This document shows, piece after piece, positions 17,482 through 30,727 of a stretch of DNA of 32,000 bases. The stretch's first letter is position 1. The number at the start of each line of letters is the position of its first letter. The stretch comes from Candidatus Saccharimonadota bacterium (lineage in GTDB: Archaea > Nanohalarchaeota > Nanosalinia > Nanosalinales > Nanosalinaceae), in assembly GCF_047555085.1 (NCBI RefSeq), contig NZ_CP180230.1:900001-932000 (forward strand), in the 5' to 3' direction. The translations under genes and the position numbers were made by a program. The notes beneath the pieces were generated by a model. The model did no database searches. It was not told where the DNA came from and was given only the letters and a program-made list of their open reading frames with translations.

Positions 17482-18816
17482 ATGAGCAACAAAACACTGA
17501 AGGATATTGATCGGGCCATCAGGGAGTTGAGATCCGAGATAGAGATCTACAGCAGAGTGACTCCTGAGAACTCTGAAGAGGCCAGGAAAAAATTTGAGGA
17601 GAGTATAAAAGGAGAAGTACCTGAATCAGAGGCCTCTGTCCGTGAAGACGTTGTTAACGAAGTTGTAAGCGATACTGTAGCATCCTCTATTACTCCTGAC
17701 GATCTTGGAGCCGAAGAGATAAGAGAACAGGATATCGAAGATCCTGAATTTGAGTATATTGATCAGGAAAGTTTTGAAGACGTCAGAAGAGAGCTTGCCA
17801 GATTCGAGAGAGATCTTGATGAAACAGATGCTTCTGAGACAGTAAAAGAGATGTACAGAGATACTATCGAAGAAGGAATGGCTTTGATTGATATCGCCGA
17901 GAATCTTGGAGATCCGGAAGCGGTGCAGGAGGCCTCAAGAAGGATTTACGGCGAGCCATCCGAAAGTACTGTTGAATGGGCAGACGAAGTGCTTCAAAAT
18001 GAAGAATCTGCTGATGATCCAAGGTATACGGAAGGAAGATTCTCGACTACAGACATGAAGGAGTCTCTAGAGAAGACTCTGGCTCTTCTGGATATGGAGG
18101 AATGGACTGTAGACACCAGAGAAAAAGGCTCTATGAAAGTTAACGCTGCGAATCAGGAAGTCAGTGTCCCGGAGGGAAGAGAGTTTACAGAGAACGAAAT
18201 GATGAGACTTCTGGTACACGAAATCGGCACACACGCCCTGAGAGGAGCAAACGGATACAAACAGGAGTTCGGCGTGATGGGATCAGGAACAGGACATTAT
18301 CATCAGGCCGCCGAAGGAATCGCTTTCTTCCTGGAGGAGGCTACAGGCCTCTCAAATCCGGACAACAAGAAAAAGTACGCTGCACGAGTTAAATCCGTGG
18401 AATCTGTTATGGACGGAAACGACTTCACAGACACCTATATCATGAACAGGGAGTTCGGATTCGATCACGACAAGGCCTGGAATATAAGCCTGAGAGCTCA
18501 CAGAGGCGGCGGATTCATCAAGGATCATATCTACGCCGAAGGCTTCAGGCAGATAGAGGCCTATCTGAAAGAAAGCGATGACGTTGAGAACAGCGACGGA
18601 CTTGAGGAGTTCATGGCTATGGACGGACATCTGGAGGATCTTATGGCTGGAAAGATTTCAGTCGAACAGGGCTATAATCTTAGAGGAGAGTTAGAGGCCG
18701 AATACAGCCCTATGACTGTGATAGAGAATCTGGATTATCTGACGCCCGATGGCGTTGATACAAGCGTCGTGGACGTTGATCCAAGGCTGCAGCAGTGGTA
18801 CTCTCAGGCCTCCTAG
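17482..18816 (+). CDS. DUF1704-type putative zinc metallopeptidase (HExxH; MATCAP / tyrosine carboxypeptidase-like family)
   Basis: Contains LLVHEIGTHALRG (HEIGTH at 18217-18234), followed by AAEGIAFFLEE, which resembles the family's QEGLA motif. The N-terminal about 200 aa are acidic. The ATG at 17482 is supported by aaaaatacttaaaattc (17447-17463). Confidence 0.6.
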   Translation: MSNKTLKDIDRAIRELRSEIEIYSRVTPENSEEARKKFEESIKGEVPESEASVREDVVNEVVSDTVASSITPDDLGAEEIREQDIEDPEFEYIDQESFEDVRRELARFERDLDETDASETVKEMYRDTIEEGMALIDIAENLGDPEAVQEASRRIYGEPSESTVEWADEVLQNEESADDPRYTEGRFSTTDMKESLEKTLALLDMEEWTVDTREKGSMKVNAANQEVSVPEGREFTENEMMRLLVHEIGTHALRGANGYKQEFGVMGSGTGHYHQAAEGIAFFLEEATGLSNPDNKKKYAARVKSVESVMDGNDFTDTYIMNREFGFDHDKAWNISLRAHRGGGFIKDHIYAEGFRQIEAYLKESDDVENSDGLEEFMAMDGHLEDLMAGKISVEQGYNLRGELEAEYSPMTVIENLDYLTPDGVDTSVVDVDPRLQQWYSQAS

Positions 18817-24689: not shown

Positions 24690-25706
24690 TTATTTTCCCG
24701 CGCGTAAAACCGCTCTGGACTCTTCTCTACCCACCTCAACACGGTAGCCAAATTTCTCGATAACATACGAATTAGACCGGATATGCGAATTTATCTCCGG
24801 AACAGAGTACACTCCATCGACTATCGCCGCGAAAACCATCAACTGATCTGCCATGTACTCATCGACAGAGGCCTCCGAATCATGGAACTCCATAAACGCC
24901 TGGAAGGCCTGTTCAGCTACTTTCTCGGAACTTTTACCTTTCTCCCCTAGTGCATCGAAACCTGCTATCGAGTTCTCATAGACAGCTTTGATCAAAAGAG
25001 CGGAGCCTGTAGAATCTGATTCGATATACTCGAAATTTTTCTCAACTTTTTCTGAAGCAAAATTTTTCTTCAGTTTTTTAGCTGCTTCATCGGCCTGACG
25101 CTCCGCCACGTTACTTTCCTCAAGATCCCTGGAGGCCTTCGAGTAGATCTCGATTTTTTCAAGTTCTCCACGCTCCAAGAGTTCAAAACTTTCCATGGAG
25201 TAATTTTCTGTCTCCAGGGAGATTTTTCCACCACCTTTCGGATAGAAACCTGTTTTTTCAACCTCAAAATCTGTTTCAAGGCCTAGTTTTTCCAGTAAAA
25301 GAAGTTTAACATGTTCATAGTAAAGTGAGGTCGGCGACCATTTTACATCGGTTCCTCCGGAGGCCTTTATACCGAATTTTTCCGTGAACTGTGTTGTGAC
25401 AGGTAAAACAGTATCGAAGAGCAAAGTTGTGCTTCCTGCCGTCCCTATATCTGATTCTATATCCTGGTTGCGGTATTTTCCTGGTTTGAAAACTATTTTC
25501 TCCGAATATTTCTCCAGGCCTTCTGTTTTGGCGTCGCAGAGTTTTTTCGCTGCTTTAACGCATTCCAGGTGCTGGTTTTTCAGGCCCGGATTCGATCGAT
25601 TGCCTCTGATGTTTTCTATAGTAAAGTTTTTTCCGGTGACTGCGGAAAGTGTTAAAGCTGTTCTCAGCATCTGTCCTCCGCCCTTCTCACCGTTTATCTG
25701 TATCAT
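24690..25706 (-). CDS. rtcA: RNA 3'-terminal phosphate cyclase
   Basis: Starts MIQINGEKGGGQMLRTALTLSAVTGKNFTIENIRGNRSNPGLKNQHL, matching the conserved RtcA N-terminus. The start was moved from 25892 to the ATG at 25706. Confidence 0.9.
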   Translation of the reverse strand: MIQINGEKGGGQMLRTALTLSAVTGKNFTIENIRGNRSNPGLKNQHLECVKAAKKLCDAKTEGLEKYSEKIVFKPGKYRNQDIESDIGTAGSTTLLFDTVLPVTTQFTEKFGIKASGGTDVKWSPTSLYYEHVKLLLLEKLGLETDFEVEKTGFYPKGGGKISLETENYSMESFELLERGELEKIEIYSKASRDLEESNVAERQADEAAKKLKKNFASEKVEKNFEYIESDSTGSALLIKAVYENSIAGFDALGEKGKSSEKVAEQAFQAFMEFHDSEASVDEYMADQLMVFAAIVDGVYSVPEINSHIRSNSYVIEKFGYRVEVGREESRAVLRAGK

Positions 25707-25727
25707 GGAAAATTCAATGAGGCCGGA

Positions 25728-25738
25728 GTTATTTGAAT
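25728..25738. promoter_or_regulatory. Single A/T element (gttatttgaat) centred exactly between the divergent rtcA and ybaK-like starts
   Basis: The midpoint of 25706 and 25761 is 25733.5, and the element centre is 25733. That puts it about 27 bp from each ATG. Confidence 0.4.
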
Positions 25739-25760
25739 CTGGCCGGGAAAATTTTCGGTA

Positions 25761-26273
25761 ATGAAAGGCTTCACGCAGACACCTGAGGAGATGGAAGAGT
25801 TCGCAGAGTTCATTGAAGAAGATATAGAAAACGTACAGAGAGTTATAGGCGAATTGATGAGCGAAGATATCGACGCCGAGTTCATGGTACATGCAAAAGC
25901 CGAGACAGTCGAGGAATCCGCAGAAAACACCGATATGGAAGCAGAAAACATAATCAAAACACTTGTCTTCATCGGCGAAGAACCTGTCGCCGTCCTCTGT
26001 CCAGGCGACACCAGCGTCTCCGAGGAAAAACTCGAGAAAATTTTAGGGAGCGAGGTCAGGATGGCAAAACCTGGTGAAGTCACTGAAGCCACCGGATACA
26101 TCGTAGGCGGAGTATCACCTTTCGATCTTGATATCAAAGTCCTTATGGAAGAATCTATACTTGAAAAAGAACGTGTAAAGCCAGCAGCCGGATCAAGAGT
26201 CGTAGGAGTATCAATTAACGTAGATGATCTGAAAGAAATCACAGATCCAGATATTGTGGACGTATCAAGATAA
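25761..26273 (+). CDS. YbaK/ProX-type aminoacyl-tRNA trans-editing deacylase
   Basis: Contains IKTLVFIGEEPVAVLCPGDTSVSEEKLEKILGSEVRMAKPGEVTEATGYIVGGVSPF, the YbaK/ProRS-INS-like core with G-G-V-S-P. Confidence 0.8.
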   Translation: MKGFTQTPEEMEEFAEFIEEDIENVQRVIGELMSEDIDAEFMVHAKAETVEESAENTDMEAENIIKTLVFIGEEPVAVLCPGDTSVSEEKLEKILGSEVRMAKPGEVTEATGYIVGGVSPFDLDIKVLMEESILEKERVKPAAGSRVVGVSINVDDLKEITDPDIVDVSR

Positions 26274-26279
26274 AAAAAT

Positions 26280-27164
26280 CTATAAAACAGGCCTTCTGTC
26301 CATTTCAGGCCTCTTTCCTTCCAGTAACTCGTCTATACCGCCTCTGAAAAACGTATCGTTCAATATCTCGAGATCTTCCGAGGCCTCGGCTTTTTCGAAG
26401 CCTTCATCTGTTCCAAGAGCGTATCCTGTGCTCTGATCGTAGCTATGCGGCAAAGCGTATTCTGTATTGTTTGAGAGACTTGAGGCCTCAAGTACGTCGG
26501 ATCCGAAGACGAACTCCGGGTGGTATACCGTCCAGTCGTTTGAAAGTTCTCCCTGTACTGTCTGCCAGGCCTCTGAAAGGTTTCTGGATTTTTTCCTGAC
26601 TGTTCCTCCTCCCTGATTTTCTTCCTGGAGGTCCTGGGCCTCGATGTATATCTGATCCTGGTCTAGTTCATCGAGCGCCGGTTCTGGCGAAGCCTCCTGT
26701 TTTTCCCGCGATGTGTCGCTGTATCCTTCATGTGGTTTTACCTCCACCATGTGGATGTCGTATTGATCAAGATCGATGAAAAGCAGGTCTGCATCGCCTT
26801 TTCTCAGGTGGTCTGCCGGATCCCTGTTATGATCGACTCCAGAATCTATATTGAATTCGTCAGGATGTTCGTAGAAGTCCTGTTCGACCAGTACAAGATC
26901 CCATCTGTTTCTGCCCTGTTCGATGTTTCTCCTGTATCTGTCAAGTCTTCCATCGATCAGGAGATCATGGCGGTCCTGTTTCTCACGTGGATCAGCCCGG
27001 AGAATACCTCCAACATAGACGTCTTCCTCGATACCTACGCCCGGAGCATCAACCATATCCGGCGTCCAGGGCCTGTTAACACTTGCCTTCTGTAGAACAG
27101 TCGAGTGAGCGGCTTCAGGAATGTCAAAAGTCCTGTAAGCCTCAGATGCATCAAGCTCACTCAT
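26280..27164 (-). CDS. Acidic hypothetical protein (294 aa) with a PD-(D/E)xK nuclease-like motif
   Basis: The segment GDADLLFIDLDQYDIHMVEVKP (nt 26736-26798) matches the D...(D/E)-x-K core seen in NucS/Hjc-type nuclease folds. The rest is unrecognised. It has its own TATA-like gatgttaaaaatctat (27186-27201). Confidence 0.5.
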   Translation of the reverse strand: MSELDASEAYRTFDIPEAAHSTVLQKASVNRPWTPDMVDAPGVGIEEDVYVGGILRADPREKQDRHDLLIDGRLDRYRRNIEQGRNRWDLVLVEQDFYEHPDEFNIDSGVDHNRDPADHLRKGDADLLFIDLDQYDIHMVEVKPHEGYSDTSREKQEASPEPALDELDQDQIYIEAQDLQEENQGGGTVRKKSRNLSEAWQTVQGELSNDWTVYHPEFVFGSDVLEASSLSNNTEYALPHSYDQSTGYALGTDEGFEKAEASEDLEILNDTFFRGGIDELLEGKRPEMDRRPVL

Positions 27165-27208: not shown

Positions 27209-27700
27209 CTAAAGCCGGGACAGAATATCCTTGCCGAAAAGCCGTCTAACATCCCTGTAAACATCTTCAGAGTGGTCTCTAGTGGAATCAGGCCAGTAAA
27301 CCGATCCCTGCAACAATCCATCCTCAGAGGCCTCATAATCCCTTTCCTCGTCGAATACAAGCATGGAGGCCTCGTATCCCCAGTCGTTCTCCATCTCTTC
27401 AAGCAGATCAGTCAGCTCCCGACCATTCTCAGCCACGAAACCAGGCCCCAGAGAATCACGTGACTTTCCAAGATCCACATCATACACGCTGATATAGAAA
27501 TCCCTCATATCGACGTTAACCATATCAGCCTGTATGGAAAAACCTTCTCCGCCCATATTGAGGCCTCTAACAGAATTATTTCCGGAGATGTATTCTCCAC
27601 GGTACAGGAAATCGAAAGGCCTGTCTAATCCTACTTCACTCATTCTTTCACGGGTGATGCTGTCCCAGAAAAGCTCCCTGTCCGAGAAATTTTTTCCCAC
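27209..27700 (-). CDS. Hypothetical protein (163 aa)
   Basis: This is a clean ORF with no recognised motif. The GTG start at 27700 is supported by an A/T element (caacaaaatatttacag, 27714-27730) about 25 bp upstream. The alternative start is the ATG at 27643. Confidence 0.45.
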   Translation of the reverse strand: MGKNFSDRELFWDSITRERMSEVGLDRPFDFLYRGEYISGNNSVRGLNMGGEGFSIQADMVNVDMRDFYISVYDVDLGKSRDSLGPGFVAENGRELTDLLEEMENDWGYEASMLVFDEERDYEASEDGLLQGSVYWPDSTRDHSEDVYRDVRRLFGKDILSRL

Positions 27701-27799: not shown

Positions 27800-28825
27800 A
27801 TGGATCTTGAAGAGAAAAAAGAGCTTGTACTGCGTAACACCGACGAAATAGTAACTGAAGAAGAACTCGAAGAAGTACTTGAAGAGAAAAACGAGCCGAA
27901 CACGTACGTCGGCTACGAAACATCAGGCCCCGTCCACCTAGGACACTGGGCCTCTATCAGAAAACTAAGTGATCTGCAGAAAGCAGGATTCAATCTCAAA
28001 GTTCTGTTCGCAGACCTGCATACCTATCTGAACAAGAAAGGAGAGGAGGACTGGATCCAGTCCATGACAGAGTACTGGGAGGCCACTTTCGAGGCCTGTG
28101 GCCTTGACGCAGAGTTCCACAGAGGCCGAGGATTCCAGGAAAAAACAGAATACTTCCACGACGTCCTGGAAATGTCACTAAACACCACGATAAACCGTGG
28201 ACAGAGATCAATGAGCGAGGTAGCATCCGGAGACGACGACTCACGTGCAGTCAGCCAGGTGATCTACCCGCTCATGCAAGCCTTAGATATCGAATACCTA
28301 GACGTCGACGTTGCCATGGGTGCAACGGATCAGAGAAAGATTCACATGCTGGCAAGAGAAGCGCTGCCAAAGATTGGATACAGAAAGCCGACATGCCTCC
28401 ACCATCCACTCGTCGTCTCACTTCAGGGAACGGAGAAAATGAGTTCCTCGAAGCCTAAGACCATGTTCCCACTCCACGCATCCATAGAGACAGTAGTTGA
28501 GAGAATCGAAGACGCCTACTGCCCACAGGGAGAAGTAGAAGAAAATCCAGTCATCCAGATCTGCCAGTTCCACATATTCGGCGACGACGAAGAACTTCAC
28601 ATCGAGAGGCCTGAAGAATACGGCGGAGACATCCACTACGAAACACTGGAGGCCTTAGAGAAAGACTTCGAAAGCGGAGAACTCCACCCACAGGACCTCA
28701 AAAACTCCGTCGCACAGCACATCGCCGACAAACTCAAACCAGTCAGAGAAAAATTCAAGAACAACCCAGAACTGCTGGAGTGCCTGGAAGAAATTGGGCA
28801 TGAAAAACCAGACTACGTGGAATAA
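27800..28825 (+). CDS. tyrS: Tyrosyl-tRNA synthetase (archaeal type)
   Basis: Contains YVGYETSGPVHLGHW (HIGH-type) and KMSSSKP (KMSKS-type). Length is 341 aa. Confidence 0.92.
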   Translation: MDLEEKKELVLRNTDEIVTEEELEEVLEEKNEPNTYVGYETSGPVHLGHWASIRKLSDLQKAGFNLKVLFADLHTYLNKKGEEDWIQSMTEYWEATFEACGLDAEFHRGRGFQEKTEYFHDVLEMSLNTTINRGQRSMSEVASGDDDSRAVSQVIYPLMQALDIEYLDVDVAMGATDQRKIHMLAREALPKIGYRKPTCLHHPLVVSLQGTEKMSSSKPKTMFPLHASIETVVERIEDAYCPQGEVEENPVIQICQFHIFGDDEELHIERPEEYGGDIHYETLEALEKDFESGELHPQDLKNSVAQHIADKLKPVREKFKNNPELLECLEEIGHEKPDYVE

Positions 28826-28854
28826 AGGCTAGATAAGCCTAAATTTTTCCTTAT

Positions 28855-29427
28855 TTATAGTTTCCAGTAGCTAAAATCATCTTTCTCAACTCTCTTCTCA
28901 ATAAACTGTGTCCTTATTTTCTCGAGCTCAGAAATGGATTCTATTGCCATATCTAAAATTTCATCAGTCTCTTTGGGGAGGTCAGCCTCAAAATCTTTCG
29001 AATTCACAGAATCTCCTAATTTGGAATTATCTCTCTTTTTAGCAATTGTCTTATGAACTAGCTCATTTCTAATTCCGGAAATATATTCAAGTTTTTCTTT
29101 GAGCTCATTCCCTATCACACCTTCTTCTGCCATCTTTTCAACAGCCTCGGGAAAATCAACATTGTTAAATTCCTCTTCAAACTCCTCAACATCCATTGCA
29201 GGAATTAAGACATTATTTTGTCGAAGAAAATCTTTATCCAAAGTTTGAACCAAAGGAAAAGCCATCTGAACATACAGACATTGGACATCCACGTTGAATC
29301 TAGCAAAAAATTTCAACAAATCATTCTCTCGTTTTACTGTATCTTCAACAGGATAAAAACTCTCCTTCATAGCCTCTAAATTTTCTGAAAATTTGTAATT
29401 TGATATCAAAAATTCAGAATCAGTCAT
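28855..29427 (-). CDS. Low-GC hypothetical protein with an R-N-x-x-x-H (HEPN-like) motif
   Basis: The segment EYISGIRNELVHK has its RNELVH at nt 29053-29070. It has a helical, Lys-richer composition than its neighbours. Sampled lines give about 32-40% GC, against about 50% in a sampled line of adjacent tyrS. It contains no AGGCCT copy. Confidence 0.5.
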   Translation of the reverse strand: MTDSEFLISNYKFSENLEAMKESFYPVEDTVKRENDLLKFFARFNVDVQCLYVQMAFPLVQTLDKDFLRQNNVLIPAMDVEEFEEEFNNVDFPEAVEKMAEEGVIGNELKEKLEYISGIRNELVHKTIAKKRDNSKLGDSVNSKDFEADLPKETDEILDMAIESISELEKIRTQFIEKRVEKDDFSYWKL

Positions 29428-29466
29428 ACAGGTGAAAATTTTAACGTTCTTAGATAATTAATCCTT

Positions 29467-30210
29467 ATGACTTACTCCGATTTCGAGGATTATGCGGCCT
29501 TGTATGATATAGTTTCCGAGAGTAAGAGTGATGGGAGAGATGTCGAGTTCTACGTTGAAGAGGCCTCTAAAGTTGATGGGAAGGTCTTGGAGGTTGCGTG
29601 TGGGACTGGCCGGATCTATCTGGAGATGCTGGAGGCCGGTGTTGATGCGTACGGTATCGATATCTCTGAGGCGATGCTCGAAATTTTGAGGGAGAAAGCC
29701 GAGAGTAGAGGCCTTGAGCCGGAAGTTGAGAAGGCGAATATGCAGGATTTTGATCTGGATGAAAAATTTTCCCTAATTATGATTCCGTACCGGAGTTTTC
29801 ATCATAATTTAACTGTGGATGATCAGCTGGCGACGCTTGAGACGATCTACGAACATCTTGAGGATGGCGGAAAATTTATACTGAATTTTTACTGTCCGGA
29901 TTTCGAGTTCATCAGTGAGAACTACGGGGAAGAACTGAGAAGTGATATCGAAGGACATCCGGAACTTGAGTTAGTTGAGTTCAACGAGTTTGTGGATCCT
30001 GTGGATATGATCATCGAGTTCGAGAAAAAAGTTCTTGAGGACGGTGAAGTGAAATGGTCTTCTACTGGGAAAAGCAAGATGACGACTAAGACGGAGTTTG
30101 AGCTTTTGTTGCGGAACTCAAGTTTCTCAGAGTGGAATGTCTACGGTGGTTTTGATCTTGAGGAGCTGGAAAACTCGGAGCAGGAGATGGTCTGGATAAT
30201 AGAGAAATGA
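29467..30210 (+). CDS. Class I SAM-dependent methyltransferase (small-molecule/RNA type)
   Basis: Contains motif I, VLEVACGTGRIYLEMLEAGVDAYGIDISEAML. No DNA-methyltransferase (D/N/S)PP(Y/F) or PCQ motifs are present. A TATA-like gaaaattttaacg (29434-29446) lies upstream. Confidence 0.8.
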   Translation: MTYSDFEDYAALYDIVSESKSDGRDVEFYVEEASKVDGKVLEVACGTGRIYLEMLEAGVDAYGIDISEAMLEILREKAESRGLEPEVEKANMQDFDLDEKFSLIMIPYRSFHHNLTVDDQLATLETIYEHLEDGGKFILNFYCPDFEFISENYGEELRSDIEGHPELELVEFNEFVDPVDMIIEFEKKVLEDGEVKWSSTGKSKMTTKTEFELLLRNSSFSEWNVYGGFDLEELENSEQEMVWIIEK

Positions 30211-30596
30211 AGCTGAAAGTTTTCGATACAGAGATTTTTCTGGATGAAAGTCTTGTAGAGGCCTCTGAAGACGAGATCAGGAGACAGGTGAAAGAGTATC
30301 TTTTAGGAGAACAAGAAGTTTTTGAACTGGATTTTTCGAGGCCGGAAAATTTTACAGGGAAAGTTATGGAGGAGATGCTGGAGATCCCGCGTGGCGAGAC
30401 CAGAAGTTACGGCGAGATTGCAGAGGCCTTGGATTCTGCTGCGATTGCTGTTGGTCAGGCCTGTGGAAGGAATCCTTTGCCGTTGATTGTTCCTTGTCAC
30501 AGGGTTGTCGGGAAAAGTTCTGTTGGTGGTTACTGCGGTGAGAAAGACAGTTTGGCGAAGAAAAAGTTGCTGGAGCTGGAAGAGTCAGATTTTTAA
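30207..30596 (+). CDS. ogt: Methylated-DNA--protein-cysteine methyltransferase (Ogt/MGMT) DNA-binding/active-site domain
   Basis: Has the active-site IVPCHRVVG (PCHR at 30492-30503), preceded by GETRSYGEIA. An ATGA overlap with the upstream methyltransferase suggests translational coupling. Confidence 0.85.
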   Translation: MKLKVFDTEIFLDESLVEASEDEIRRQVKEYLLGEQEVFELDFSRPENFTGKVMEEMLEIPRGETRSYGEIAEALDSAAIAVGQACGRNPLPLIVPCHRVVGKSSVGGYCGEKDSLAKKKLLELEESDF

Positions 30597-30693
30597 CTCT
30601 GCCCGCAAAAATTCTGGTTACAATGAAAGGTGGATGTGTTTCTACCGGCTACGTTTGCAACTTGTAGGCCTGTTTTAGGTCAGTTAAAACCTG

Positions 30694-30707
30694 TTTTAGA
30701 TAAAAAT
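30694..30707 (+). promoter_or_regulatory. TATA-like box for serS (leaderless)
   Basis: The element ttttagataaaaat is centred about 27 bp upstream of the ATG at 30728. Confidence 0.5.
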
Positions 30708-30727
30708 TTCTGCACAAGTGATTATAC

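What the first reader, a model, noticed from the sequence alone, without database searches (positions are those of the whole stretch)
28855..29427. Low-GC, AGGCCT-free gene encoding an RNxxxH (HEPN-like) protein: likely horizontally acquired defence or toxin RNase candidate
Sampled 60-nt lines in this gene give about 32-40% GC, against about 50% in a sampled line of adjacent tyrS. It is one of the few genes with no AGGCCT copy, and its protein is more Lys-rich than its very acidic neighbours. All three points are consistent with recent foreign origin. The protein is all-helical in character and contains EYISGIRNELVHK. Its R-N-E-L-V-H (nt 29053-29070) fits the R-x4-6-H catalytic motif of HEPN-domain RNases, typically RNxxxH (established family signature). 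HEPN proteins act as toxins in toxin-antitoxin, abortive-infection and CRISPR-associated systems. No partner gene such as an MNT-type antitoxin fits in the flanking 29-39 bp gaps, so it would be a solitary HEPN. A single short motif can occur by chance.
Basis: partly seen in the sequence, partly recalled or inferred. Interest (0 to 1): 0.65.

Follow-up and report, generated by a model that had tools for sequence, protein, structure and literature searches.

The report
Orphan HEPN-like gene in a nanohaloarchaeon
A small, unusually AT-rich gene beside the tyrosyl-tRNA synthetase gene of a nanohaloarchaeon is real, is known from only three genomes, and probably encodes a very divergent lone member of the HEPN RNA-cutting family; it is an old accessory gene, not a recent import.

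Summary
The ORF 28855-29427 (-), 190 aa, is real and under purifying selection (dN/dS about 0.09 against a close relative). It is the strongest composition outlier in the window: GC 0.337 against 0.44-0.52 for the other genes, z = -6.2.

The HEPN reading is supported, but only below formal thresholds.
- Every best profile hit for it and its one full-length homologue is a HEPN-superfamily family (HepT/DUF86 E = 1.3e-3, NCBIfam HepT_toxin E = 3e-4, DUF4145, DUF3644).
- hhalign against 44 real HepT proteins puts R120 and H125 on the catalytic R and H (P = 0.002).
- The AlphaFold model's best PDB matches are HepT/HEPN toxins and MtlR (prob 0.9-0.96, but E 0.3-1).
- Controls show the hits need both the motif and its native flanks.

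It is not a HepT/MntA toxin: the HxY tyrosine is missing, there is no MNT gene, and no curated cut-off is passed.

"Recent acquisition" is not supported. The gene sits at the same tyrS-proximal place in three lineages, always at about 33% GC, and its protein is as acidic as its neighbours. It is absent from 15 or more other nanohaloarchaeal genomes, where this slot holds other, often low-GC, genes. The lack of AGGCCT is within chance.

Verdict: a new, very rare family of a known superfamily. Interest is modest.

The parts
28855..29427 (-). Protein-coding gene, 190 aa. It encodes an acidic, all-alpha, orphan HEPN-like protein.
   Evidence: ORF. There is a 55%-identical full-length homologue, P0001, and a 91%-identical partial copy in L084. 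dN/dS is 0.094 against L084. Against L001, dN is 0.33 with saturated dS. The best profile and fold matches are HEPN-clan.
29053..29070 (-). R120-N121-E-L-V-H125, the putative Rx4H catalytic motif of a HEPN RNase, lying in predicted helix 107-133.
   Evidence: It is conserved in P0001 as RNELAH. H125 is the only His in the protein. hhalign aligns it to the invariant R and H of 44 HepT proteins. Mutating R, N and H in silico abolishes the HEPN-clan Pfam hits. Keeping the motif but shuffling its flanks also abolishes them, 0 of 10.
29314..29343 (-). D29-T-V-K-R-E-N-D-L-L38 at the start of predicted helix 2. It is the longest invariant block between the two homologues and a possible counterpart of the HEPN helix-2 acidic/basic (Ex3[KR]-like) element.
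   Evidence: Invariant in alignment A1. The element is described for HEPN in PMC3710099. The mapping to HepT helix 2 is my reading by eye and was not recovered by hhalign, so it is inference only.
29428..29466 (.). 39-bp divergent intergenic region shared with the methyltransferase gene. It has AT-rich TATA-like boxes on both strands (TTAATTAT about 27-34 nt upstream of the minus-strand ATG), suggesting leaderless transcripts.
   Evidence: Sequence. About 36 of 39 positions are identical in L084, more conserved than the adjoining methyltransferase coding remnant. Promoter function is inferred, not tested.
28826..28854 (.). 29-bp convergent gap between the tyrS stop and the HEPN-like stop. It holds a 5-bp hairpin followed by a T-run.
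   Evidence: Terminator-like site at 28826-28840 followed by AAATTTTT. In L001 the two genes are only 2 bp apart.
27800..28825 (+). tyrS (archaeal TyrRS), the conserved left anchor of the variable slot.
   Evidence: Pfam tRNA-synt_1b E = 1.6e-40. 93% identical to the TyrRS of Nanohaloarchaeota MAG NHA29.
29467..30210 (+). Class I SAM-dependent methyltransferase, the right neighbour. It is a conserved archaeal gene, not a dedicated partner of the HEPN-like gene.
   Evidence: Pfam Methyltransf_25 E = 4e-19. 444 homologues: 85-88% identical in close relatives (87% in L085, 84% in a Nanosalina sp. MAG) and 45-50% in other archaea. In relatives that lack the HEPN-like gene it sits at the same place between tyrS and serS.

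Best explanation
The ORF is a genuine accessory gene of a nanohaloarchaeon (DPANN archaea). It encodes a highly divergent, orphan member of the HEPN superfamily.

The protein is a cytoplasmic, salt-adapted helical bundle. Helices 1-2 are at roughly residues 13-56, followed by a long insert. Helix 3 (107-133) carries R120-N121-x3-H125, and helix 4 is at 154-182.

By analogy with characterised HEPN enzymes, it most likely dimerises so that two RNxxxH motifs form a metal-independent endoribonuclease site, leaving 2',3'-cyclic phosphate ends. It has no MNT antitoxin and lacks the tyrosine that MntA AMPylates in HepT. It is therefore not a type VII toxin-antitoxin toxin, and its control (low expression, an unlinked partner, or activation by a trigger) is unknown.

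It occupies a variable slot just downstream of tyrS. In related genomes that slot carries other unrelated, often low-GC genes, so a conflict or stress role (toxin or abortive-infection-like RNase) is the most likely biology.

Shown: the gene is real and constrained, is very rare, has low GC, and has a syntenic but patchy distribution.
Supported below threshold: HEPN homology and fold.
Inferred: dimerisation, RNase chemistry and the defence role.
For: Gene reality and constraint:
- Intact homologue at 55% identity in L001.
- dN/dS = 0.094 against L084.

HEPN homology:
- Pfam HepT-like E = 1.3e-3 (residues 94-125 on profile positions 61-92 of 120) and DUF4145 E = 0.036.
- NCBIfam HepT_toxin E = 3e-4.
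- P0001 independently hits DUF3644 (E = 0.017) and DUF4145 (E = 0.027) over the same stretch.
- DUF86, DUF4145, DUF3644 and MtlR are all HEPN families according to PMC3710099.
- hhalign of the two-sequence profile against 44 bona fide HepT proteins gives P = 0.0021 with R/H aligned on R/H.

Fold:
- AF2 model: pTM 0.64, core helices at pLDDT 75-91.
- Best matches among 350k PDB chains are MtlR, HepT/HEPN toxins 7ae6, 6m6u and 7bxo, and YutE 1ylm, with prob 0.82-0.96 and target-normalised TM 0.45-0.65.

Controls:
- 9 shuffled or reversed sequences give no HEPN hit; best E = 0.02.
- The motif mutant loses the hits.
- Motif kept with flanks shuffled: 0 of 10 hits.

Accessory status and slot:
- No homologue in 15 or more other nanohaloarchaeal tyrS loci.
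- The slot holds DUF6338 (GC 0.35), an unrelated 210-aa ORF (GC 0.37), a SAM hydroxide adenosyltransferase and others in relatives.
Against: - No HEPN match reaches a curated or conventional threshold. Pfam gives 18.9 bits against a gathering score of 23.5. NCBIfam gives 20.6 against 60. Foldseek E is 0.3 or higher. hhalign probability is 13%.
- An HMM built from my narrow HepT set scores the protein at only 3.8 bits; 668 of 20,000 shuffles do as well.
- Profile matches cover only about 30-50 residues around the motif and vanish when three residues are changed.
- The model rests on a two-sequence alignment (mean pLDDT 64). The replicate model for P0001 is poor (pLDDT 50), and its HEPN-rich hit list is not significant.
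- There are no hits in PADLOC, PHROGs or PDB sequences.
- The surroundings are housekeeping genes, not a defence island.
- No regulator or antitoxin is identified, which is unusual for an active HEPN toxin.
Confidence: 0.55

Rival explanations
1. It is not a HEPN protein. It is a lineage-specific acidic helical protein of unrelated function, in which RNELVH and its helical context resemble HEPN profiles by chance.
For: - All HEPN evidence is sub-threshold.
- R[NHDS]xxxH occurs in three ORFs of this window alone.
- Helical, E/K-rich sequences attract weak hits; controls reach E = 0.02.
- A narrow HepT HMM gives a non-significant score.
- The N-terminal half finds no HEPN counterpart in hhalign.
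Against: - The best hits of two proteins only 55% identical, in two HMM libraries, one profile-profile comparison and two structure libraries, all fall in one superfamily.
- 0 of 19 shuffle-type controls gave any HEPN-clan hit.
- The motif's His is the protein's only His and is conserved.
Confidence: 0.27
2. It has a HEPN fold but is not a toxin or defence gene. It is a benign RNA-processing or regulatory protein, or a catalytically idle binding module (as in MtlR or some MNT-associated HEPN domains) that needs no antitoxin.
For: - No antitoxin or MNT gene in the window.
- The top Foldseek hit for both models is the regulator MtlR.
- Housekeeping neighbourhood with tRNA synthetases and RtcA.
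- Strong purifying selection and stable synteny.
- No PADLOC hit.
Against: - The catalytic R-N-x3-H is intact and conserved. Per PMC3710099, non-catalytic HEPN domains typically lose the motif.
- The family is far too rare and patchy for a core function: three instances among about 15 billion proteins.
- The L084 copy carries a frameshift, so the gene may be dispensable.
Confidence: 0.13
3. One reading: a recently acquired foreign gene, with low GC and lack of AGGCCT as un-ameliorated donor signatures.
For: - Extreme GC and GC3 outlier with atypical codon usage.
- No AGGCCT.
- Absent from NHA29, the closest relative by TyrRS.
- The slot is variable.
Against: - Same position and orientation next to tyrS in the window, L084 and L001.
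- The TyrRS tree places L001 outside the window+NHA29 pair, which implies presence in their common ancestor and loss in NHA29 (single-gene NJ tree).
- dS against L084 is similar to that of the flanking ogt.
- GC is about 0.33 in hosts of 0.41 and 0.47 GC, although synonymous sites are saturated. Low GC is therefore a stable property of the gene, not a fresh import mark.
- The protein is fully halophile-style acidic.
- No mobile-element marks: no tRNA, no flanking repeats.
- No viral or plasmid relatives.
- The absence of AGGCCT has P = 0.10.
Confidence: 0.1

Closest known systems
HepT (DUF86, PF01934 / NF047751), the RNase toxin of type VII HepT-MntA toxin-antitoxin systems (e.g. Shewanella SO_3166, PDB 5yep/6m6u; Aphanizomenon HEPN, PDB 7ae6)
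   Same: - Best sequence-profile match in both Pfam and NCBIfam.
- R-N-x-L-V-H aligns with the HepT R-[ND]-x-L-I-H.
- Best structural matches, with target-normalised TM 0.54-0.65.
- Small all-alpha protein.
   Different: - Scores are below the family cut-offs.
- The Tyr of Rx4HxY, which is invariant in my set of 44 HepT proteins and is the MntA AMPylation site by established knowledge, is Thr127 in both homologues.
- No adjacent MntA/MNT gene.
- The protein is 190 aa against about 110-140 aa, with a roughly 50-residue insert before helix 3 and a long loop after it.
- The invariant HepT helix-2 E-x2-GEA and the Trp before the motif are absent.
DUF4145 (PF13643) and DUF3644 (PF12358) HEPN families, found alone or fused to restriction and abortive-infection modules (PMC3710099)
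   Same: - Both homologues hit DUF4145 over residues 91-133 (E about 0.03).
- P0001 also hits DUF3644.
- These families, unlike HepT, commonly occur without an MNT partner.
- The overall size of stand-alone members is similar (my knowledge).
   Different: - Scores of 14.6-15.1 bits are well below the gathering scores of 23.1 and 27.6, and lie within the range reached by shuffled controls.
- No restriction-modification, helicase or Abi genes nearby.
MtlR/YggD family (PDB 6kcr), HEPN-superfamily regulators
   Same: Top Foldseek hit for both models. Listed as a HEPN family in PMC3710099.
   Different: E is 0.27-0.9 and query-normalised TM is 0.25-0.39. A subset of MtlR proteins has lost the Rx4-6H motif, whereas this protein keeps it. 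There is no sugar-operon context.

Membership tests
HEPN superfamily (Anantharaman et al. 2013, PMC3710099; Pfam clan CL0291) | Rx4-6H motif with a polar residue (N, D or H) directly after the Arg | tested here: met
   R120-N121-E-L-V-H125 is conserved as RNELAH in P0001.
HEPN superfamily (Anantharaman et al. 2013, PMC3710099; Pfam clan CL0291) | [quoted passage not shown] | tested here: inconclusive
   The AF2 helix order fits: 13-24, 30-56, an insert, 107-133 carrying the motif, then 154-182. The best PDB matches are HEPN proteins, but at E 0.27-1 and from a model with pLDDT 64. The replicate model is poor.
HEPN superfamily (Anantharaman et al. 2013, PMC3710099; Pfam clan CL0291) | Statistically significant profile similarity to an established HEPN family | tested here: inconclusive
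   HepT-like E = 1.3e-3, HepT_toxin E = 3e-4, hhalign P = 0.002. All are below curated cut-offs. Controls support specificity.
HEPN superfamily (Anantharaman et al. 2013, PMC3710099; Pfam clan CL0291) | Conserved acidic residue in helix 2, typically within Ex3[KR] | tested here: inconclusive
   D29-x3-R33 is invariant in both homologues, and E28-x3-K32 is present in the window protein only. Its spatial position relative to the motif could not be checked, and hhalign did not align this block to HepT.
HEPN superfamily (Anantharaman et al. 2013, PMC3710099; Pfam clan CL0291) | Metal-independent endoRNase activity from a dimeric composite site | not testable with these tools
   This needs biochemistry or a multimer model.
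HepT toxin of type VII HepT/MntA TA systems (PF01934, NF047751) | Score above the curated family cut-off | tested here: not met
   18.9 bits against 23.5 (Pfam) and 20.6 against 60 (NCBIfam). P0001 gives no HepT hit at all.
HepT toxin of type VII HepT/MntA TA systems (PF01934, NF047751) | Rx4HxY with the tyrosine that MntA AMPylates | tested here: not met
   The position after H-x is T127 in both homologues. Y is invariant in the 44 HepT proteins.
HepT toxin of type VII HepT/MntA TA systems (PF01934, NF047751) | Adjacent mntA (minimal nucleotidyltransferase) antitoxin gene | tested here: not met
   The neighbours are tyrS and a class I SAM methyltransferase. No nucleotidyltransferase family was hit in the 27 window ORFs scanned. 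In L001 the upstream gene is a small conserved ORF that also occurs in genomes without the HEPN-like gene.
DUF4145 HEPN family (PF13643) | Score above the gathering threshold, with R-M/Abi association | tested here: not met
   14.6 and 15.0 bits against 23.1. No R-M or Abi genes in the window.
Known anti-phage defence systems (PADLOC-DB v2) | Match to any defence-system protein model | tested here: not met
   0 families at E up to 10 for the window protein and up to 1 for P0001.

The most novel reading that the evidence does not exclude
The gene founds an antitoxin-less HEPN RNase family confined to one nanohaloarchaeal clade. It sits in a tyrS-proximal cassette slot that exchanges low-GC conflict genes between relatives.

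Its activity might be held in check by modification of the RNA target by the divergently transcribed methyltransferase. This is hinted at only by L084, where the methyltransferase has a roughly 480-bp internal deletion and the HEPN-like ORF carries a frameshift, i.e. possible co-decay.

Against this: the methyltransferase is a widely conserved archaeal gene that sits at this locus in relatives lacking the HEPN-like gene. In L001 the gene immediately upstream is not the methyltransferase, although that contig ends about 100 bp further on. The L084 lesions come from a single short contig.
Probability: 0.06. Interest if true: 0.6.

Novelty: new member of a known kind. Interest (0 to 1): 0.3.

Why it matters
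If confirmed, this adds a new and extremely rare family to the HEPN RNases. It would come from the Nanohaloarchaea, tiny symbiotic DPANN archaea whose conflict and defence genes are almost unstudied; a full-text search found no paper mentioning both Nanohaloarchaea and HEPN.

It would also be an example of a HEPN enzyme with an intact catalytic motif but no recognisable antitoxin or sensor domain.

The tyrS-serS interval emerges as a small hotspot of variable, often AT-rich cargo in this clade. That is a practical place to look for further accessory or defence genes.

The finding does not open a major question. HEPN is a large superfamily already known for many divergent stand-alone families.

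Tried and rejected
- Sequence searches for more relatives found only two. These were the 5.8-billion-cluster word search, an exhaustive HMM search of 1.84 billion representatives, and pattern scans of GTDB genomes, IMG/VR and JGI metagenomes. The two relatives are P0001/L001 and the fragment P0002/L084.
- The exact window protein is not on record in the contig index.
- tblastn against phage and plasmid collections found no match.
- PDB sequence searches with the protein, the two-sequence profile and the motif segment gave nothing or chance hits such as conglycinin and VP4.
- PADLOC and PHROGs gave nothing meaningful.
- An HMM built from my 44 HepT proteins scores the protein at only 3.8 bits (empirical P = 0.03). 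I reject it as support, because the set is a narrow subfamily.
- My by-eye match of D29-TVKRENDLL to the HepT helix-2 block D-AVIRNLEII was not recovered by hhalign, either on the N-terminal part alone or on insert-deleted constructs. I keep it only as a remark.
- The second structure model (P0001 first) was too poor to add weight. The BFVD search was not significant; the highest-probability hit (0.41) was a phage MAE_28990-like HEPN protein.
- The 210-aa ORF in the same slot of L089 contains KEKLE...RNELFGLH, which looked like a distant relative. Smith-Waterman against shuffles gives z = 1.5, so I rejected it.
- The 189-aa ORF in the same position and orientation in L006/L017 has no similarity.
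- Mobile-element marks: no tRNA genes in the window, no flanking direct or inverted repeats beyond chance, and no Rfam match in 28500-29800.
- RtcA (RNA 3'-phosphate cyclase) lies 3 kb away and could suggest an RNA-repair link. It is near tyrS in most nanohaloarchaea whether or not the HEPN-like gene is present, so I rejected it as a partner.
- A spurious ORF is rejected on conservation and dN/dS.
Full report
**1. The observation**

EYISGIRNELVHK is at residues 114-126. R120-N-E-L-V-H125 is encoded at 29053-29070. The gaps to the convergent tyrS gene (29 bp) and to the divergent methyltransferase gene (39 bp) are as stated.

The composition claim holds strongly:
- Gene GC is 0.337 and GC3 is 0.304, against 0.44-0.52 (GC) and 0.34-0.59 (GC3) for the other 30 ORFs.
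- It is the global minimum of all 573-nt windows, z = -6.2.
- GC is low at all three codon positions, and its codon usage is the least typical of 30 genes.

The AGGCCT claim does not hold as evidence. The hexamer is 19-fold over-represented in the window (129 copies). At 4 sites per kb, however, a 573-nt stretch lacks it by chance one time in ten, and two larger site-free gaps exist elsewhere.

The "Lys-rich versus acidic neighbours" point is marginal. Lys at 9.5% is the top value, but the protein has pI 4.5 and 22.6% Asp+Glu, just like its neighbours.

The hexapeptide alone is not significant, since R[NHDS]xxxH occurs in three ORFs of this window. H125 is, though, the protein's only histidine.

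**2. Organism and setting**

TyrRS is 93% identical to that of Nanohaloarchaeota MAG NHA29, and all close hits are Nanohaloarchaea.

The window is a housekeeping region: ribosomal proteins L11, L1, L10 and P1, FtsZ, AlaRS, TyrRS, SerRS, RtcA, Hsp20 and MinD-like ATPases. There is no nucleotidyltransferase, no restriction or Abi gene, no tRNA gene and no flanking repeats.

**3. How rare the gene is, and whether it is real**

Searches of 5.8 billion protein clusters, an exhaustive HMM scan of 1.84 billion representatives, GTDB genomes, IMG/VR and JGI metagenomes gave only two relatives:
- P0001, 194 aa and 55% identical, on JGI contigs L001 and L002.
- A 58-aa fragment, P0002, on Logan contig L084.

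In L001 the gene is again convergent with tyrS, 2 bp apart. In L084 it is again divergent from the methyltransferase and ogt genes.

Evidence for constraint:
- Against L084 (118 codons), dN = 0.046 and dS = 0.49, so dN/dS = 0.094. The neighbouring ogt gene has dS = 0.67.
- Against L001, dN = 0.33 with saturated dS. TyrRS has dN = 0.078 and dS = 1.78.

It is therefore a real protein-coding gene under purifying selection. It evolves about four times faster than TyrRS at the protein level.

**4. Is it HEPN?**

*Sequence profiles.* The window protein's two best Pfam hits are HepT-like/DUF86 and DUF4145:
- HepT-like/DUF86: E = 1.3e-3, 18.9 bits, residues 94-125 on profile positions 61-92 of 120.
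- DUF4145: E = 0.036.

NCBIfam gives HepT_toxin at E = 3e-4. P0001, only 55% identical, hits DUF3644 (E = 0.017) and DUF4145 (E = 0.027) over the same stretch. The reference analysis of the superfamily lists DUF86, DUF4145, DUF3644 and MtlR as HEPN families (PMC3710099).

*Profile-profile comparison.* I retrieved 120 genuine PF01934 proteins, using a consensus-like query only as bait, and aligned 44 of them. hhalign of the two-sequence profile against them gives P = 0.0021. It aligns residues 77-125 to HepT positions 27-82 and places R120 and H125 on the invariant Arg and His.

*Fold.* The AlphaFold2 model has pTM 0.64 and mean pLDDT 64, with core helices at 75-91. It is all-helical, with helices at 13-24, 30-56, 80-88, 92-101, 107-133 and 154-182.

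Its best matches among 350,542 PDB chains are MtlR (6kcr), the HEPN/HepT toxins 7ae6, 6m6u and 7bxo, and YutE (1ylm). Probabilities are 0.82-0.96 and target-normalised TM is 0.45-0.65, but E is 0.27-1.

This layout matches the published HEPN description. [quoted passage not shown]

*Controls.*
- Nine shuffled or reversed versions gave no HEPN hit; best E = 0.02.
- Changing R120, N121 and H125 to Ala removes both HEPN hits.
- Keeping RNELVH but shuffling residues 86-119 and 126-140 also removes them, in 10 of 10 constructs.

The signal therefore needs both the motif and its native context.

*Weak points.*
- Nothing passes a curated threshold.
- An HMM from my narrow HepT set scores only 3.8 bits, with empirical P = 0.03.
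- The N-terminal half finds no counterpart in hhalign.
- The replicate model of P0001 is poor, at pLDDT 50.
- PDB sequence searches, PADLOC and PHROGs are empty.

I put HEPN-superfamily membership at about 0.65-0.7.

**5. What it is not**

It is not a type VII HepT toxin:
- It is below both family cut-offs.
- The Tyr of Rx4HxY, invariant in the 44 HepT proteins, is Thr127 in both homologues.
- There is no MntA gene.

The divergent neighbour is a class I SAM methyltransferase with 444 homologues. Identity is 85-88% in close relatives (87% in L085, 84% in a Nanosalina sp. MAG) and 45-50% across other archaea. It sits between tyrS and serS in relatives that lack the HEPN-like gene, so it is an ordinary resident gene rather than a dedicated partner.

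The small ORF upstream in L001 also occurs next to tyrS in SG9, M3_22 and another MAG, without the HEPN-like gene.

**6. Origin**

Across nanohaloarchaeal genomes the tyrS-serS interval is highly variable:

| Locus | Content of the interval |
|---|---|
| L005 | nothing |
| L004, L011, L012, L015 | ogt |
| NHA29 (L003) | a SAM hydroxide adenosyltransferase |
| L006, L017 | an unrelated 189-aa ORF |
| L085-88 | a DUF6338 membrane protein plus a 46-aa ORF (GC 0.35-0.37) |
| L089, L090 | an unrelated 210-aa ORF (GC 0.37) |
| L007 | 4.6 kb of other genes |

"Recent" is not supported:
- A TyrRS NJ tree gives ((window, NHA29), L001). The simplest history is therefore presence in the common ancestor and loss in NHA29. 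This rests on a single-gene tree, so the caveat is real.
- dS against L084 matches that of the flanking gene.
- GC is 0.33 in both the window and L001, although their genomic GC is 0.47 and 0.41 and synonymous sites are saturated. Low GC is therefore a maintained property of the gene, or the cassette is exchanged among relatives.
- The protein is fully halophile-style acidic.
- No viral or plasmid relative exists in the collections searched.

**7. Most likely mechanism**

The protein is most likely a cytoplasmic, salt-adapted HEPN-fold protein that dimerises. R120, N121 and H125 from two chains would form a metal-independent endoRNase site (chemistry as described for HEPN in PMC3710099).

It is expressed from a compact divergent promoter that is about 92% conserved in L084. 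It has no linked antitoxin.

A conflict or stress role is favoured by four observations:
- Its rarity.
- Its patchiness.
- The cargo-slot location.
- Possible pseudogenisation in L084.

That role is inferred, not shown.

**8. Verdict**

The gene is best filed as a new, very rare family within a known superfamily. It is not a HepT/MntA member and not a recent import. Interest is modest (0.3).

Noticed in passing
window 1-32000; also L003, L012, L015, L084, L085, L089: AGGCCT (a StuI-type palindrome) occurs 129 times in 32 kb against 6.6 expected (19-fold). It falls in all three codon phases and is slightly enriched between genes (24 of 129 sites in 13% of the sequence), with a weak extension to A-G-AGGCCT-C-T. 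The same 10- to 20-fold excess is seen in loci of NHA29, SG9, M3_22 and L084, and site counts are also high in L085 and L089 (24 sites each). It is absent (0.3-1.8-fold) from L001 and from most other nanohaloarchaeal loci of similar relatedness. Some sites are positionally conserved in serS and tyrS, even between the window and SG9. This looks like a DNA-level, lineage-patchy signal with no explanation here.
   Followed up: partly
window 28826-30727 and the tyrS-serS interval of L001-L018 and L085-L092: The interval between tyrS and serS is a small variable hotspot in Nanohaloarchaea. Its content ranges from nothing (156 bp) to 4.6 kb, and several occupants are AT-rich relative to their genome: the HEPN-like gene, a DUF6338 protein, a 210-aa ORF and a 99-aa ORF in L008.
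   Followed up: partly
L084 428-595 and 699-1056 (Logan SRR27869037): In this close relative the methyltransferase gene has lost about 480 bp internally (window 29684-30164 is missing). The HEPN-like ORF has a 1-nt deletion in codon 57 that breaks the frame, yet it is otherwise 90% identical with dN/dS of 0.09. This is either very recent joint decay or an assembly error.
   Followed up: partly
L089 822-1454 (+): A 210-aa low-GC ORF occupies the same slot. It has hydrophobic termini and contains KEKLE..RNELFGLH (an Rx6H with Asn after Arg). It gives weak PADLOC hits to Avs2 models (E 0.004-0.01). Its similarity to the window protein is not significant (z = 1.5).
   Followed up: partly
window 24690-25892 (-): An RtcA RNA 3'-phosphate cyclase gene lies 3 kb from the putative RNase. 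The tyrS-RtcA proximity is conserved in most nanohaloarchaea whether or not the HEPN-like gene is present, so it is probably unrelated.
   Followed up: yes
window 26280-27164 (-) and 27209-27700 (-): Two very acidic ORFs (294 and 163 aa) upstream of tyrS have no Pfam family. Among the fetched loci they have homologues only in strain M3_22 (L015), at 50% and 42% identity.
   Followed up: no
window 17482-18816 (+): A 444-aa protein matches Pfam MATCAP (microtubule-associated tyrosine carboxypeptidase) at E = 3e-46. This is an unexpected family name for a DPANN archaeon.
   Followed up: no
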